Position numbers and translations under genes: made by a program. The notes below the pieces were generated by a model. It had not been told where the DNA came from. It saw only the letters and a list, made by a program, of their open reading frames with translations, and searched no databases. This document shows positions 4,790-59,806 of a DNA stretch of 64,000 nt, piece by piece. How positions within the stretch are numbered: position 1 is the first letter of the stretch; every line of letters starts with the position of its first letter. This DNA comes from Candidatus Woesearchaeota archaeon (GTDB taxonomy: Archaea; Nanobdellota; Nanobdellia; Woesearchaeales; JAGVYU01), in assembly GCA_018303105.1 (NCBI GenBank), contig JAGVYU010000061.1, forward strand, positions 3,109-67,108, written 5' to 3'.

Positions 4790-5045
4790 TTGATTTGTAT
4801 TTCTTGCACGCCACCATGTCGGCGGCTTACGGCCATGCATCGCATGGCCTACTCGCCACCCCGGATGTCTAAGAAATCGAAGATTTCTGAGATCTTAAAA
4901 ATTGCAGAGCAATTTTTCAGAGGGCATCCCCCGGCTCGTCCAGCGCCGACGTGGCGTGCGGCGAGGGTGGGGATGCGCCGTCCGGGCTCCCGAGCAGGAC
5001 AGATTTACGAAGTAAATCTGGACGTCGCACCGCCACTGTCGGCGC
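4790..5045 (+). ncRNA. Candidate GC-rich structured non-coding RNA of unknown class, strand uncertain
   Basis: This is the highest-GC non-coding stretch in the window. It holds several perfect hairpins: GGCCATGC/GCATGGCC at 4831-4849, AGAAATC-GAA-GATTTCT at 4872-4888, AAAAATTGC-AGA-GCAATTTTT at 4896-4916, GCATCCCC...GGGGATGC at 4924-4976, and CAGATTTAC-GAA-GTAAATCTG at 5000-5020. The only ORFs here are Arg-rich shadow frames. Confidence 0.3.
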
Positions 5046-30361: not shown

Positions 30362-31225
30362 TTAAAGAAGCGATACTTGGGGATCTGCAGGCAGGTAATC
30401 TTGTAATGACTTGATCTCACGCTCAAGCATTCTCAGCTCAGGCTGTGTCAGCGCAGCATACTCTTTTTGAAGAACATCTGTAACTTCGCACTGATGCCTT
30501 TTGTCGCCAACTTCCTCAGCAAGTCGCAATTGGCTCAGCAAATACTGAAATCGAGGAGCCAATGCAGATCTTGATCCTGGTTTCGCCATGATTCCTATAC
30601 GAGGTCTGCAAGAAGGATCTGTCCCTGGATTAAATACAAAATGCCCGAGTAGGGGAGGAAGCAAAGAAGCAGTCTCTGAAAGAATTGACTCGCTCGGGTA
30701 GCGCTCCGGAGTATGATAGATTCCCTTTTCTCTATTTTCTGCTGTAATTGTGTCAAGATGCGCAACTCCTGAGTGCATTGTCTCTGCGATGATTTCAGGA
30801 AGTGAAATCGACGCTAGCCTGCCGACGGTATGACGCGCTCTCGTGAATGAAGTATCATCGAGCCCTGCAAAGAATGCGATGAGAGGGTGTACATGATCAG
30901 AAAAATGTTCATAGAAGCCGTCGGGCAAATGAGTTTCGTATCCGTTCATTCCTGCCACAATCGCGAAGAGATGCAGCTTGTTGTACATTGATAACAATCG
31001 CGGGGAGTGCACGTGGTGCTCAGCGAAGTGATCATGCACAAACTGCGCAAGATCTTCATCTCTGTACACATGTTCAAATCGACCTACATTGAGAGCTGAG
31101 CCTCGAATCAGCGCACGCACAACGCTGTCTTTGAGCTCCGGCGGAGCACTTTGAATGCGTGTATTAAGCGATCCCATGCGTGCTAGGAATGTCGAGAAGT
31201 ATATAAATATTCTTATTTTAACCAC
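30362..31225 (-). CDS. Hypothetical protein
   Basis: A 287-aa ORF with several His-rich segments (HDHFAEHHVHSP) and no recognised family. Confidence 0.4.
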   Translation of the reverse strand: MVKIRIFIYFSTFLARMGSLNTRIQSAPPELKDSVVRALIRGSALNVGRFEHVYRDEDLAQFVHDHFAEHHVHSPRLLSMYNKLHLFAIVAGMNGYETHLPDGFYEHFSDHVHPLIAFFAGLDDTSFTRARHTVGRLASISLPEIIAETMHSGVAHLDTITAENREKGIYHTPERYPSESILSETASLLPPLLGHFVFNPGTDPSCRPRIGIMAKPGSRSALAPRFQYLLSQLRLAEEVGDKRHQCEVTDVLQKEYAALTQPELRMLEREIKSLQDYLPADPQVSLL

Positions 31226-39610: not shown

Positions 39611-39999
39611 GAGAAAGAATTTCTGCCATCATCATCAAAGACAAAAAGATCCTCCTCGTCACAGGATATGATGAATCCTTTTATTGGACGCCGGGAGGGA
39701 AAGTGGAACCAGGAGAATCGCACCAAGAGGCGATGAAGAGGGAACTTAAAGAGGAGATATCCGTCAAACTCGTTGAGATGCGCCCATATTGTGCGTACAA
39801 GGCAACGAACGAGACAACCGGACAACCTCAAAAAGTTCACTGTTATCTTGTTGAGATTAAAGGAACTCCTTCCCAAAAAGCGGAGCTGACAAAAAGCATG
39901 TGGTGTTCATCTCAGGATATTTTGACTGGAAAGACCAAAGTATCCAAAAGGATATCTTCTCAACTCTTGCCAAGACTAATGAAGGATAAAATTCTTTGA
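39607..39999 (+). CDS. NUDIX hydrolase
   Basis: The Nudix box is GGKVEPGESHQEAMKRELKEEISV (Gx5Ex7REUxEExGU). Confidence 0.8.
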   Translation: MRERISAIIIKDKKILLVTGYDESFYWTPGGKVEPGESHQEAMKRELKEEISVKLVEMRPYCAYKATNETTGQPQKVHCYLVEIKGTPSQKAELTKSMWCSSQDILTGKTKVSKRISSQLLPRLMKDKIL

Positions 40000-40050
40000 G
40001 ATGCTTCTAAGAAATGTTTATAAGGGCTGTGCAATTTATGATTTTAGTAA

Positions 40051-40134
40051 GCGGGGATGCCGGAGAGGTCAAACGGGCTACGTTCAGGGCGTAGTAGCTT
40101 AGTGCTTACGGGGGTTCGAATCCTCCTCCCCGCA
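40051..40134 (+). tRNA. tRNA-Leu (anticodon CAG), class II with long variable arm, no encoded CCA
   Basis: The acceptor stem pairs GCGGGGA with TCCCCGC. The D arm is CCG/CGG around an 11-nt loop. The anticodon stem is CTACG/CGTAG with loop TTCAGGG, giving CAG with G37. The variable arm has an AGC/GCT stem. The T arm is GGGGG-TTCGAAT-CCTCC. The discriminator is A. Confidence 0.75.
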
Positions 40135-40258
40135 GCCTTTTTACAAAAAAGTCTGGCCAAAAAGAAGGGAGTTGAACTCACGTTCAAGCTCCCTAAGTTT
40201 AATTCGTGGGCTCGAGCGGTAGCGAGACCCACAGACGCCAGCGGGCTTCCGCTGGTGG

Positions 40259-40275
40259 GAATCCTCCTCCCCGCA
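40259..40275 (+). repeat. Direct repeat of the tRNA-Leu 3' end (GAATCCTCCTCCCCGCA; other copy at 40118-40134)
   Basis: An exact 17-nt repeat. The 3' flank is similar in both copies (A-rich linker plus hairpin), but the 5' side has no acceptor or T-arm partner, so the second copy is not a functional tRNA. Confidence 0.5.
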
Positions 40276-40359
40276 ATCCTTTTAAAAAAAGGCTTGACCG
40301 AAAAAAGAGGGTTGCTCTCACGAGCAAGCCCTCTGAGTGTTTTTTGAGGGCTTGAGGTG

Positions 40360-41121
40360 TTATTTACTTACTTTTTTGGCGATCACAAGAAAGCGTTCAT
40401 CCGTAAACGCTAGGAGCTCACCTTGATCTAGACGAGTTTGGAGGTTGTACAGTACTGACTTATATTTGTCTACTGTAAATCCAGGCACAATCCACGGGAT
40501 CGCCTTGAGAAAATACACGATTGCGCCAACATCATGGAAGACCCGTTTGCCGGACCATTCCTCCGACTTCACAATGGTGAGACCATCTGAAGTCAGATTT
40601 TTCTGAACTTTCGCTGCTCCCCAGTCCGATTTTTTCTTAACTCTGAAGAGTGAAATCAAATCATGGAGGTTTTTACCTCCGACTTGCTGCGTACAAAAGA
40701 CTCCGTTAGGCTTTAGGAGACGCCTTATTTCGACAGCGTTAAAGGTGCCATGTCTGTTCAGAATGACATCAAAATACCCCTCTGGAAATGAAAGAGGGGC
40801 GTCCCCCATACAATGAATAACGTGTATGCCGAGCGGTGAAAGCCTTCTCTTTGCCAATTCATAATTTGGTGCGTATCCCTCTGTCGCATACATTTTCGTT
40901 GGAAGCGGCTTGAGAGAGCTGAGAAATTCGCCTCCCCCCGTTTCCAAATCAATTGCTGACTCAGCATTTGCCAAATACTCGCGCACAATATCGGTGTAAT
41001 CCCAAGGAGGTGATTCAGATGCCATTCGGTTCCGAATGTAAGAAAAATCCCAACCGTGCATAGGTGCAGATTCATCATGCCTCCACCGCTCAAGCAAAAT
41101 TTCAGCACTGTTTTTCTTCAT
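40360..41121 (-). CDS. Class I SAM-dependent methyltransferase
   Basis: It has a glycine-rich motif I region (IDLETGGGEFL) and size and fold-level features of a Methyltransf_11/23-type enzyme. Confidence 0.55.
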   Translation of the reverse strand: MKKNSAEILLERWRHDESAPMHGWDFSYIRNRMASESPPWDYTDIVREYLANAESAIDLETGGGEFLSSLKPLPTKMYATEGYAPNYELAKRRLSPLGIHVIHCMGDAPLSFPEGYFDVILNRHGTFNAVEIRRLLKPNGVFCTQQVGGKNLHDLISLFRVKKKSDWGAAKVQKNLTSDGLTIVKSEEWSGKRVFHDVGAIVYFLKAIPWIVPGFTVDKYKSVLYNLQTRLDQGELLAFTDERFLVIAKKVSK

Positions 41122-41837
41122 TTACCGTATCTCCCCATCACATCATTCCACCGTATCCTCAAAAGATCAAGCATCATCTTCATGGGATCTCTTAAAATTC
41201 GCACTTTAGAGTTCGGATCATTTCTCCATGACACCGGAACCTCTTTGATGGAATAGCCATGTTTTTGTGCAAGGTAGAGTAATTCGACGTCAAACGCCCA
41301 GCCATGCAAACGCTGCTGTTTGACAAGCTTCTTTGCAATAGCTGTTTTGAACAGTTTAAATCCGCATTGAGTATCCTGTATTCCCTTTACTCCCAGCATG
41401 CGAACGAGTAATGGGAAGAGTTTTCCCATTGAGCTTCTCAGGAAAGGTTGCGGCTTCGTGATTTTCGATTCTGGAAGGTTCCTTGAGCCGACCACAATAT
41501 CATATTTAAGATACTGGGAAAACACATCAAGGGTATGTATGGGTGTGGAATGGTCCGCGTCGCAGAACAGTACGTGAGGCATTTTTGCAGCAAGAATTCC
41601 TTTTTTTACTGCGCTGCCTTTACCCTCATTACTGCTTCCACGAATGACTCGTATAGGTGCCTTGCTTTGGGTTGCGGCGTTACGAGCAACAGACGCCGTG
41701 CTATCCGCGCTTCCGTCATCAACTACAATTATCTCGTAAACGATATTTCGCTTCCTGCAGTATGCTATGATATCTGTCAATGTCTTTCGAATTCGTTTCT
41801 CTTCATTATATGCGGGAATAACGATTGAAAGCCTCAC
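41118..41837 (-). CDS. Family 2 glycosyltransferase (dolichyl-phosphate sugar synthase-like)
   Basis: MRLSIVIPAYNEE...IIVVDDGSADST is the GT-A DxD-type N-terminus, and a conserved QCGFK-type block follows. It overlaps the upstream MTase gene by 4 nt. Confidence 0.8.
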   Translation of the reverse strand: MRLSIVIPAYNEEKRIRKTLTDIIAYCRKRNIVYEIIVVDDGSADSTASVARNAATQSKAPIRVIRGSSNEGKGSAVKKGILAAKMPHVLFCDADHSTPIHTLDVFSQYLKYDIVVGSRNLPESKITKPQPFLRSSMGKLFPLLVRMLGVKGIQDTQCGFKLFKTAIAKKLVKQQRLHGWAFDVELLYLAQKHGYSIKEVPVSWRNDPNSKVRILRDPMKMMLDLLRIRWNDVMGRYGK

Positions 41838-44950: not shown

Positions 44951-45242
44951 TTGATGCGAATTCTGGGAGATTGATTGGGAGTAAAGTATCCAAATAAGGC
45001 CCTTTGCGAACTCCATGCAATCCCTGTCTTTGCGAGCCAGCCATGGCGGCGGCGAGGGAGGGGATGGTTGCCGAGCGAAGCGAGCGCAACTAGGAAAATC
45101 CATGATTTTCCGTGCTCCATACGGGAATCCCGAGCAGGGCATTTTGTGCAGCAAAATGACCGTCGCCCGCCATGATTGGCTGGCTCATCCTAAATACCTG
45201 CCGCCTGACTGTGATTTTATCAACAACATTTAAATAGAAAAC

Positions 45243-59137: not shown

Positions 59138-59806
59138 ATGTGGGTTGTTTTCATGGCTAGAACGTATAATGAGTATTATCTCGGATGGCAGGAGATTAAC
59201 AGGATCATAGCCTGTGCCAAGAACCTCAAAGAGCGGGTAATTCTAAAGATTCTGGCGAGAACAGGCATGCGAAGATTCGAGCTTGCAAATCTTCGCGTAA
59301 AAGACGTCGATTTTGACCGCAAGCGCATCTATATCAGCAAGGGAAAAGGAGGAACTGACGAGGATCCAAAATCGAGGATCGTTCCTATCGACGATGACAC
59401 CCTTCAAGATATCAAGTTTTATCTCGAAGGACGCCGGGCCGGAATATTGATCCAGAGCAATAAAAAAGCGCATGACGGCATCTCTTTATCCGCAATAAAC
59501 AGGATTACCGAAGGGGCTGCTGAACGGGCAGGAATCCGGAATCCTAATCCAAAGCTTAAGCATCTCAATCCCCATATCTTCAGGCACAGTTTCTCACGGC
59601 TCAGCCTCATGGAGGGCATTCCCTTCAACATTGTGCAGAAAATTGTTGGACACGCCGATGCGCGAACAACGCTGCAAATGTACGGAGTACCGTCGATAAA
59701 TGACGCTCAGCATATGTACAACGAAAAGCTGACTATGCGCTTTCACCAAAAAGTGAGCCTTGAGGAAGATAACAAGCTTTCAAAATTTACGTCTGACAGA
59801 TCGTAA
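59138..59806 (+). CDS. Minimal tyrosine recombinase/integrase (catalytic domain only)
   Basis: The catalytic residues are R in TGMRRFEL, K in ISKGKGG, HxxR in HIFRHSF, the second R in HADARTT, and the nucleophile Y in LQMYG. No N-terminal SAM-like core-binding domain is present. Confidence 0.8.
   Translation: MWVVFMARTYNEYYLGWQEINRIIACAKNLKERVILKILARTGMRRFELANLRVKDVDFDRKRIYISKGKGGTDEDPKSRIVPIDDDTLQDIKFYLEGRRAGILIQSNKKAHDGISLSAINRITEGAAERAGIRNPNPKLKHLNPHIFRHSFSRLSLMEGIPFNIVQKIVGHADARTTLQMYGVPSINDAQHMYNEKLTMRFHQKVSLEEDNKLSKFTSDRS

What the first reader, a model, noticed from the sequence alone, without database searches (positions are those of the whole stretch)
40051..40345. tRNA-Leu followed by a decayed tandem duplicate of its 3' end, each copy trailed by a near-identical hairpin with a TCACG loop
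Unit A is the tRNA 3' end ...GAATCCTCCTCCCCGCA at 40118-40134, then an A-rich linker, then the hairpin GGGAGTTGAAC-TCACG-TTCAAGCTCCC at 40167-40193.

Unit B is the same 17-mer at 40259-40275, then the linker, then the hairpin GAGGGTTGCTC-TCACG-AGCAAGCCCTC at 40306-40334.

Upstream of the second 17-mer sits a D-arm-like CTCG-AGCGGTAG-CGAG. No acceptor 5' strand or intact T arm is present, so it is not a functional tRNA. Two explanations fit:
1. This is the scar of an integrase-mediated event at the tRNA 3' end. It would be an att core duplicate with most of the element since lost.
2. It is a tandem duplication with decay of the second tRNA copy.

The conserved hairpins may be processing or termination signals.
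Basis: seen in the sequence. Interest (0 to 1): 0.5.

Follow-up and report, generated by a model that had tools for sequence, protein, structure and literature searches.

The report
Duplicated tRNA-Leu tail with terminator hairpins
Behind a normal tRNA-Leu gene of a DPANN-type archaeon lies a second copy of the gene's last 17 bases plus its usual downstream hairpin; this is a non-functional leftover of DNA recombination at a strain-variable spot, not a second tRNA.

Summary
tRNA-Leu(CAG) lies at 40051-40134. Its last 17 nt recur exactly at 40259-40275. Each copy is followed by an A/T palindrome and an 11-bp bulged GC hairpin.

No tRNA, Rfam or intron-tolerant search finds a second tRNA.

The linker plus hairpin is a conserved ~70-nt module. 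It follows the tRNA-Leu 3' end in every related locus recovered. Its stem covaries, and it sits between convergent genes with T-runs on the opposite strand. It is most likely a terminator for the convergent protein genes.

Unit B and the adjacent bacterial-type methyltransferase form a 0.94-kb strain-specific segment:
- It is absent from a sister strain, where the tRNA+A block is inverted.
- It is 99.9-100% identical in a third strain whose flanks are 89-96% identical.
- An almost identical B unit lies behind tRNA-Leu(CAA) at another locus.

Extra direct copies of the tRNA-Leu 3' end occur 77-136 nt downstream in 12 of 70 distinct loci, none upstream or inverted. One is a clean 95-nt presence/absence difference.

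Best reading: a recombination-generated, att-like duplicate of a tRNA-Leu "tail unit" at a rearrangement hotspot. This is a member of a known kind and of modest interest. No integrase, attP or empty site was found, so the mechanism is inferred.

The parts
40017..40024 (+). TATA-like box (TTTATAAG) about 30 nt upstream of the tRNA; presumed archaeal promoter. It lies in a stretch (39989-40050) that does not align to strain X.
   Evidence: Sequence and blastn vs L035. The promoter role is inferred.
40051..40134 (+). tRNA-Leu(CAG), intact, no encoded CCA.
   Evidence: ARAGORN; Rfam RF00005 at 47.7 bits.
40118..40134 (+). Core copy 1: T-loop position 57 through discriminator A73 of the tRNA.
   Evidence: Exact 17-mer; position read from the Rfam alignment.
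40136..40151 (.). A/T palindrome CCTTTTT-ACA-AAAAAG: a T5 run on the + strand directly after the tRNA and a T6 run on the - strand.
   Evidence: I5. The oligo-T terminator role is inferred from archaeal biology.
40167..40193 (.). Hairpin A: GGGAG-TTGAAC / TCAC / GTTCAA-G-CTCCC. It reads as a GUGA (GNRA) loop on the - strand, followed there by TTCTTTTT.
40206..40232 (.). Hairpin C, which contains the D-arm-like motif. It is part of the 'body' that follows the hairpin module.
   Evidence: Homologous GAGCG(G/C)T motifs follow the hairpins in L064.
40238..40255 (.). Hairpin D: CCAGCGG-GCTT-CCGCTGG, perfect 7 bp.
40259..40275 (+). Core copy 2, an orphan tRNA-Leu 3' end. The 14 nt before it match the tRNA at 9/14 positions in register.
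   Evidence: D2.
40278..40293 (.). A/T palindrome CCTTTT-AAA-AAAAGG after core 2.
   Evidence: I4.
40307..40333 (.). Hairpin B: GAGGG-TTGCTC / TCAC / GAGCAA-G-CCCTC. It is preceded by A6 and followed by T6 (40340-40345). On the - strand it is followed by T6 and then T7.
   Evidence: (terminator-like call on the - strand).
40360..41121 (-). Class I SAM-dependent methyltransferase, convergent with the tRNA. Its start overlaps the stop of the upstream GT2 gene.
   Evidence: (PF08241).
40199..41141 (.). Segment absent from sister strain X: body + core 2 + unit B + methyltransferase.
   Evidence: blastn L035 vs window. Nearly identical in strain Y (L116).

Best explanation
**What it is.** The second 17-mer is the orphan 3' end of a tRNA-Leu "tail unit". 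A tail unit is the last 13-17 nt of the gene, an A/T palindrome, a bulged GC hairpin and a short hairpin-rich body. In this clade such a unit follows every tRNA-Leu gene recovered.

**How it arose (inferred).** A second, diverged unit (B) was joined behind the first (A) by DNA recombination. The recombination used the invariant T-loop-to-3'-end block that all tRNA-Leu isoacceptor genes share. It could be site-specific (tyrosine-recombinase type), short-homology exchange, or conversion between tRNA-Leu cassettes. The result is an att-like direct repeat.

**Context (shown).** Unit B lies at the inner edge of a 0.94-kb strain-specific segment that carries a bacterial-type methyltransferase. The locus is therefore a tRNA-adjacent flexible islet.

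**Function.**
- Unit B makes no tRNA.
- The GC hairpins, flanked by A-runs and T-runs, act as RNA 3'-end/terminator hairpins between convergent genes. They serve mainly the protein genes on the opposite strand.
- The T5 run directly after the tRNA ends the tRNA transcript.

**Shown versus inferred.**
- Shown: the anatomy, homology, covariation, strain alleles and recurrence.
- Inferred: the recombination mechanism, the order of events and the terminator activity.
For: 1. **No second tRNA**.
2. **Sharp identity block.** It is 17/17 identical, starts at T-loop position 57 and ends at the discriminator. The surrounding homologous sequence is only 70-77% identical. At 72% identity, 17/17 has a chance of about 0.004 (my calculation).
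3. **Conserved module.** The linker+hairpin module is found only directly after a tRNA-Leu 3' end or fragment: window A and B, L064 twice, L044/L052, and L035/L060/L015 (nhmmer E = 1e-17 to 1e-20; alignment).
4. **Hairpin covariation.** 97.7% of cells are paired and 4 of 11 pairs have double changes. Only 1 of 500 shuffles reaches the observed score.
5. **Terminator context.**
   - Three of four variants read as GNRA loops on the strand opposite the tRNA (sequence).
   - A terminator-like call on the - strand covers hairpin B.
   - In strain X, hairpin A directly follows the stop of the convergent NUDIX gene.
6. **Strain X (L035/L060).** It lacks 40199-41141, and its tRNA+A block is inverted between the same flanking genes.
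7. **Strain Y (L116).** It is 100% identical over 40072-40359 and 99.9% over the methyltransferase. It is only 96.5%, 93.8% and 89.1% identical in the next three segments. This suggests the block was recently exchanged.
8. **Foreign-looking methyltransferase.** There are no homologues between 98% and 51% identity. The named relatives are Patescibacteria and Dehalococcoidales. The best match among GTDB species genomes is 39%, in a bacterium.
9. **A near-identical B unit elsewhere.** TGGGNAT + core + linker + hairpin lies behind tRNA-Leu(CAA) in L064. The orthologous locus in a related strain, L044, lacks it and holds a different neighbouring gene.
10. **Recurrence.** 12 of 70 distinct tRNA-Leu loci sharing this 3' end have a direct extra copy 77-136 nt downstream. 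None has one upstream or inverted. L092 vs L106 is a clean 95-nt presence/absence difference bounded by the 13-nt repeat.
Against: - No integrase lies next to the locus. The nearest Phage_integrase-family ORF is 19 kb away.
- Only 124 non-coding nt lie between the repeats.
- The strain-specific gene lies outside the repeats, not between them.
- No empty site (tRNA joined directly to linker B) was seen.
- No attP-like copy was found in IMG/VR.
- The two units are homologous over their whole length, and the 14 nt upstream of core 2 still resemble the tRNA (9/14). Simple tandem duplication therefore remains possible.
- GC hairpins are rare at other gene ends in the window, so a terminator role is not a general habit of this genome.
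- The order of events between the W and X alleles could not be polarised because no outgroup strain was found.
Confidence: 0.5

Rival explanations
1. **In-situ tandem duplication.** A ~141-bp segment (variable arm through downstream module) was duplicated in place and the second tRNA copy then decayed neutrally. The 17-mer identity would be luck or local conversion.
For: - Head-to-tail units are 70-77% identical over at least 113 nt with a 140-141 nt period.
- 9/14 identity continues upstream of the 17-mer.
- L064 shows the same tandem layout.
Against: - 17/17 identity within ~72% surroundings has P of about 0.004.
- A-B divergence (about 25%) far exceeds W-X divergence (about 8%), yet X lacks B.
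- Window B is about 97% identical to the L064 second unit but only about 75% to its own neighbour A.
- Hairpins C and D are perfect, which is not expected for a decaying pseudogene.
Confidence: 0.25
2. **Miniature non-coding insertion element.** The ~140-nt unit (core + terminator hairpin + two small hairpins) is a mobile element that inserts site-specifically into the 3' end of tRNA-Leu genes. A recombinase supplied in trans would do this, and copies would accumulate in tandem.
For: - Extra 3'-end copies are directional and recurrent (12/70 loci).
- There is a clean 95-nt indel between L092 and L106.
- Nested accretion is seen by eye in L109 vs L083.
- One insert family is conserved behind Leu(TAA), Leu(TAG) and Leu(CAA) genes, with compensatory changes in 6 of 18 pairs.
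- A short Phage_integrase ORF lies in the window.
Against: - No free or attP form was found.
- A 141-bp circle is an implausible recombination substrate.
- Presence/absence can equally be deletion between direct repeats.
- In the window family, every tRNA-Leu gene has at least one unit, so the innermost unit could equally be the gene's native flank rather than an insert.
Confidence: 0.15
3. **A functional RNA.** Unit B would be a 3' piece of a split or intron-containing tRNA-Leu, or a tRNA-like small RNA whose tail mimics the tRNA-Leu 3' end.
For: - Hairpins C and D plus the perfectly kept tRNA tail.
- A TATA-like TTTAATT at 40198-40204.
- DPANN archaea are known for disrupted tRNA genes (PMC3218864, PMC4033280).
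Against: - No tRNA call even with introns allowed, and no Rfam hit.
- No 5' acceptor strand anywhere else in the window.
- No T-arm.
- I found no bulge-helix-bulge arrangement at any register of the repeat (inspection only).
- The fold of 40194-40280 is not exceptional (z = -1.8).
- Strain X lacks it.
Confidence: 0.05

Closest known systems
Displaced tRNA-gene 3' fragments (attL/attR direct repeats) left by tyrosine-integrase elements; T-loop sublocation class (Williams 2002, from memory; Islander database, PMC4383910)
   Same: - An exact direct repeat of the tRNA 3' end that starts in the T-loop and ends at the gene end.
- The intact tRNA is upstream and the orphan fragment downstream.
- The site lies next to strain-specific, foreign-looking DNA.
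   Different: - Only 124 non-coding nt lie between the repeats.
- There is no integrase between or beside them.
- The accessory gene lies outside the repeat pair.
- The flanks of both repeats are homologous to each other.
- No attP or empty site was found.
Tandem accretion / cis-mobilisable remnants (CIME-like elements bounded by att sites, without recombination genes; from memory)
   Same: - Gene-less DNA bounded by att-like repeats.
- One or two extra copies stacked behind one tRNA gene in related loci.
   Different: - Known CIMEs are kilobases long and derive from identifiable ICEs. Here the units are 80-140 nt.
- No parent element is known.
Hairpin plus oligo-T (intrinsic-type, bidirectional) terminators between convergent genes
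   Same: - A GC stem with a run of A before it and T after it.
- It sits between convergent genes.
- The structure is kept by compensatory changes.
   Different: - Archaeal termination generally needs only oligo-T.
- The outer stem and flanks are conserved in sequence.
- The module is tied specifically to tRNA-Leu genes.
Split, permuted or multi-intron archaeal tRNA genes (PMC3218864, PMC4033280)
   Same: - A DPANN host.
- A partial tRNA sequence standing alone.
   Different: - There is no complementary leader, BHB motif or partner 5' piece.
- An intact tRNA-Leu(CAG) already exists immediately upstream.

Membership tests
tRNA gene (second copy, possibly with intron) | Cloverleaf with acceptor stem and T-arm, detectable by ARAGORN or the Rfam tRNA model. 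| tested here: not met
   Only 40051-40134 is called by default ARAGORN and in intron mode. Rfam at E<=10 gives no hit on 40194-40345. Calls appear only at a lowered ARAGORN threshold and are not credible.
tRNA gene (second copy, possibly with intron) | A 5' acceptor strand complementary to TCCCCGC. | tested here: not met
   GCGGGGATGCCGG with up to 2 mismatches occurs only at 40051.
Integrase-generated att repeat at a tRNA gene | An exact direct repeat that includes the tRNA 3' end and begins in the anticodon loop or T-loop. | tested here: met
   The 17/17 repeat runs from T-loop position 57 to A73.
Integrase-generated att repeat at a tRNA gene | Mobile DNA with an integrase gene between or beside the repeats. 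| tested here: not met
   124 nt without an ORF lie between the repeats. The nearest PF00589 ORF is at 59138-59806.
Integrase-generated att repeat at a tRNA gene | An empty site (tRNA joined to the distal flank) in a relative. | tested here: inconclusive
   Strain X lacks B, but its tRNA is joined to A and inverted. No tRNA-linker B junction was seen. L092/L106 show a clean empty and filled pair, but for another insert family.
Integrase-generated att repeat at a tRNA gene | A matching attP on a virus or plasmid. | tested here: not met
   IMG/VR scans gave no hits for the B-specific sequences. The only 17-mer hit is a chance match in coding DNA.
Simple tandem duplication with neutral decay | Head-to-tail homologous units. 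| tested here: met
   140-141 nt period with 70-77% identity.
Simple tandem duplication with neutral decay | Even divergence along the unit, and sharing by sister strains that are less diverged than the two copies. | tested here: not met
   17/17 identity sits within ~72% surroundings. Strain X (about 92% identical) lacks B.
Hairpin/oligo-T terminator | A GC-rich stem followed by a T-run, downstream of a gene. | tested here: met
   Hairpin B on the - strand has T6 and lies 26 nt after the methyltransferase stop. Hairpin A on the - strand has TTCTTTTT and lies directly after the NUDIX stop in strain X.
Hairpin/oligo-T terminator | Transcript 3' ends map to the site. | not testable with these tools
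   No transcriptome data are available.
Split-tRNA half / BHB intron | A bulge-helix-bulge motif at the junctions, or a leader complementary to a partner piece. | tested here: inconclusive
   None was found by inspecting all registers of the 17-nt repeat and by folding. No dedicated BHB tool was available.
Integron attC site | A 57-141 nt imperfect palindrome with R/L boxes and extrahelical bases, with intI and attI nearby. | tested here: not met
   The hairpins are 27 nt. GTTRRRY fits A (GTTGAAC) but not B (GTTGCTC). No integron integrase context exists.

The most novel reading that the evidence does not exclude
DPANN archaea may carry families of miniature (80-140 nt), gene-less, hairpin-rich elements. 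These would insert precisely at the 3' end of tRNA-Leu genes, each time regenerating the tRNA tail and supplying a new terminator, and would pile up in tandem. The window's A/B units would be two diverged members. The extra tails might further serve as decoy att sites or as tRNA-like small RNAs.
Probability: 0.15. Interest if true: 0.6.

Novelty: new member of a known kind. Interest (0 to 1): 0.3.

Why it matters
- For annotation, it settles that there is one tRNA-Leu here plus an orphan 3' fragment, and that the hairpins belong to a conserved downstream module.
- It flags the NUDIX-GT2 interval as a flexible islet where a bacterial-type methyltransferase was gained or lost and the tRNA cassette flipped between strains of one Rifle aquifer population.
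- The wider pattern may deserve a dedicated survey. About one in six DPANN tRNA-Leu genes with this 3' end carries short downstream tail duplicates. These could record integration history, or reveal tiny mobile elements, in organisms whose mobilome is poorly known.

Tried and rejected
- **Second tRNA, intron-containing tRNA or tmRNA.** Rejected. The default ARAGORN tool misses intron-bearing tRNAs in related loci (vs 50), so I reran it locally with introns allowed.
- **Known RNA family for the hairpins or unit B.** None at E<=10.
- **Generic repeat in the window.** Only one further pattern match exists, inside an ORF, and it is an imperfect hairpin.
- **Viral or plasmid attP.** Seven IMG/VR scans gave only chance hits.
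- **GTDB species genomes.** The search with the methyltransferase found only distant bacterial homologues. This genome is not in that collection.
- **Synteny through NUDIX homologues of about 50% identity.** There is no tRNA next to them.
- **L015 layout (NUDIX-tRNA-A-inverted NUDIX).** I interpret this as a chimeric assembly of the W and X alleles through the ~148-bp shared block. The genuine X allele is in L035/L060.
- **Outgroup strain to polarise W vs X.** None was found between 98% and 55% GT2 identity.
- **Core-like sequence at the far end of the strain-specific segment.** There is only a 10/13 match at 41080-41092, inside the methyltransferase coding sequence, which is not convincing.
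- **Logan contig breaks at 40123 and 40234.** The first is probably graph branching caused by tRNA sequence shared between community members. The second is unexplained. I do not read either as evidence of excision.

Full report
**Source and setting.**
- The window matches contigs from Rifle aquifer groundwater metagenomes: ENA ANAN16-1 scaffold_1082, JGI 3300002502, and several Logan runs.
- Neighbouring genes include ribosomal protein S8e, LSM, GINS and an S-layer-like protein.
- The adjacent GT2 gene has its best named homologues in Woesearchaeota and Nanoarchaeota. I therefore treat the organism as a DPANN archaeon (inference).

**Checking the observation.**
- ARAGORN finds one tRNA in 64 kb, tRNA-Leu(CAG) at 40051-40134. 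Rfam's tRNA model scores 47.7 bits there.
- The 17-mer GAATCCTCCTCCCCGCA is present exactly at 40118-40134 and 40259-40275 and nowhere else, even with three mismatches. Shuffles give 0.05 matches.
- In the Rfam alignment the 17-mer runs from T-loop position 57 to the discriminator base.
- The two units repeat with a 140-141 nt period and are 70-77% identical outside the 17-mer, from 40104-40216 versus 40245-40356.
- Hairpins A (40167-40193) and B (40307-40333) share a 5+6 bp stem, a bulged G and a TCAC loop. They differ at four base pairs, all compensated.
- The "D-arm-like" motif is the inner part of hairpin C (40206-40232). A perfect 7-bp hairpin D (40238-40255) precedes the second 17-mer.

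**Is unit B a tRNA?** No.
- Rfam at E<=10 finds nothing on either strand of 40135-40500 except weak chance matches.
- ARAGORN with introns allowed, run locally, still calls only the one tRNA. Only at a lowered threshold do implausible calls appear.
- The intron-tolerant rerun was needed because the default tool missed intron-bearing tRNA-Leu genes in related loci (vs 50).
- No second 5' acceptor strand exists in the window.
- By inspection I found no bulge-helix-bulge arrangement at any register of the repeat.

**The linker+hairpin is a conserved tRNA-Leu tail module.**
- One metagenome scan for the tRNA 3' end returned 90 loci.
- A profile of the ~70-nt module finds it only directly after a tRNA-Leu 3' end or fragment (E = 1e-17 to 1e-20):
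  - window units A and B;
  - two copies in L064;
  - one copy in L044/L052;
  - unit A in L035/L060/L015.
- Four distinct hairpin variants keep the stem. 97.7% of cells are paired, 4 of 11 pairs have changes on both sides, and 1 of 500 shuffles reaches the observed covariation.
- On the strand opposite the tRNA, three of the four loops read GUGA, GUGA and GCGA, which are GNRA tetraloops. The hairpin is followed there by T-runs.
- In every context the tRNA converges on a protein gene:
  - the methyltransferase in the window;
  - NUDIX in strain X, where hairpin A lies 19 nt after the stop;
  - other genes in L044 and L064.
- I infer an RNA 3'-end/terminator hairpin for the convergent genes. 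The T5 run directly after the tRNA would serve the tRNA itself.
- GC hairpins are otherwise rare in the window, so this inference needs transcript data.

**Strain comparison.** Three alleles of the NUDIX-GT2 interval exist.
- **Strain X (L035/L060, about 92% identical flanks).**
  - The 148-bp tRNA+A block is 98.6% identical but inverted.
  - 40199-41141 is missing. That segment holds the body, core 2, unit B and the methyltransferase.
  - A different promoter stretch is present.
- **L015.** This contig shows NUDIX-tRNA-A-inverted NUDIX. It is best explained as a chimeric assembly of the two alleles through the shared block.
- **Strain Y (L116).**
  - It has the window's arrangement.
  - It shows 0 differences over 40072-40359 and 1 over the methyltransferase.
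  - Identity is 96.5%, 93.8% and 89.1% in the next three segments.
  - The tRNA-A-B-methyltransferase block therefore looks recently exchanged among strains.
- **The methyltransferase.** It is a class I SAM enzyme. It has no homologues between 98% and 51% identity, and its named relatives are bacterial. That fits an accessory, horizontally acquired gene.

**Unit B elsewhere.**
- In L064 an intron-bearing tRNA-Leu(CAA) is followed by its own module, a hairpin-rich body and then TGGGTAT-CCTCCTCCCCGCA plus a linker and hairpin. That last stretch matches window unit B almost exactly (1-2 differences in about 95 nt by eye).
- The preceding body and the following gene are different.
- The orthologous locus in a related strain (L044/L052, flanks 94-97% identical) lacks this second unit and holds a different convergent gene.
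- Window B is thus much closer to a unit at another tRNA-Leu locus than to its own neighbour A.
- L064 also carries two extra copies of the tRNA's first 13 nt upstream of the gene.

**Wider pattern.**
- Of 70 distinct tRNA-Leu loci that share the 22-nt 3' end, 12 have at least one further direct copy of CCTCCTCCCCGCA (up to 1 mismatch) within 400 nt downstream. The first copy lies at 77-136 nt.
- None has a copy upstream or in inverted orientation.
- The intervening sequences belong to several unrelated families.
- One family (L045, L055, L063, L092) is conserved behind Leu(TAA), Leu(TAG) and Leu(CAA) genes. It folds into three hairpins, and 6 of 18 pairs have compensatory changes.
- L092 and L106 differ by exactly one such 95-nt unit, bounded by the 13-nt repeat, in otherwise ~99% identical sequence.
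- This is the pattern expected from recombination at the tRNA 3' end. The difference between L092 and L106 could be insertion, or deletion between repeats.

**Interpretation.**
- The sharp, perfectly kept block is hard to reconcile with one local duplication that then decayed evenly. It begins in the T-loop, B is linked to a strain-specific foreign-looking gene, B recurs at another locus, and the DPANN-wide recurrence is directional.
- On the other hand, the unit-long homology fits duplication. So does the 9/14 in-register identity just upstream of core 2 (binomial P of about 0.002, my calculation). These show that B derives from a longer tRNA-Leu cassette, not from a bare 17-bp core.
- I therefore favour recombination between tRNA-Leu cassettes at their shared 3' block, producing an att-like repeat at a flexible islet. 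The recombination could be site-specific or by short homology.
- The classical integrase-scar model fails several defining tests:
  - no integrase beside the locus (the only PF00589 ORF is at 59138-59806);
  - no genes between the repeats;
  - no empty site;
  - no attP in IMG/VR.
- A functional tail RNA or split-tRNA piece is not excluded. It lacks support.

**Verdict.** This is a new example of a known kind: a tRNA 3'-end direct repeat at a recombination hotspot, accompanied by conserved terminator-type hairpins. The mechanism and the terminator role are inferred, not shown.

Noticed in passing
window 4810-5045 and 45040-45180 (+): Two GC-rich, hairpin-dense non-coding stretches share motifs: GGCGAGGG(T/A)GGGGATG and TCCCGAGCAGG(A/G)C, then a hairpin, then GAC(G/C)GTCGC(A/C)CCGCCA. 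There is no Rfam hit at E<=1. They may be two related, unannotated structured RNAs.
   Followed up: partly
window 59138-59806 (+): A 222-aa ORF with only the catalytic domain of the Phage_integrase family (PF00589, 97 bits). It is 28-30% identical to XerA-like genes of other DPANN loci. No flanking att-like repeat was found in 50-64 kb.
   Followed up: partly
L045, L055, L063, L092 (about 10-95 nt after the tRNA-Leu 3' end); L106 as the empty counterpart of L092: A conserved ~80-nt three-hairpin insert. It begins with GAGGATTCGAA, the reverse complement of the T-loop/T-stem 3' strand, and ends in a second CCTCCTCCCCGCA. It lies behind three different Leu isoacceptor genes. L092 and L106 show a clean 95-nt presence/absence difference.
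   Followed up: partly
L064 (reverse strand), about 60 and 130 nt upstream of tRNA-Leu(CAA): Two extra copies of the tRNA's first 13 nt (GCGGGGATGCCGG). Each is followed by an A/T-armed hairpin and a TATA-like run. tRNA ends are therefore duplicated on the 5' side too.
   Followed up: no
L109 and L083; L092: Up to two extra tRNA-Leu 3' ends are stacked behind one gene. The outer unit of L109 resembles the single unit of L083, as if units were added next to the tRNA over time.
   Followed up: no
window 1-64000 (Rfam search): The whole-window Rfam search at gathering thresholds returned no hit at all. The tRNA nevertheless scores 47.7 bits in a 600-nt search. This is a filter effect of the tool, worth remembering for other windows.
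   Followed up: no
window 30411-30428: A third exact match to TTGNNCTCACGNNCAAGC lies inside ORF 30362-31225 (-). The arms do not pair perfectly, so it is probably chance.
   Followed up: yes
L016 1-2993: In a distant relative, the NUDIX homologue sits directly after two tandem tyrosine-recombinase genes.
   Followed up: no
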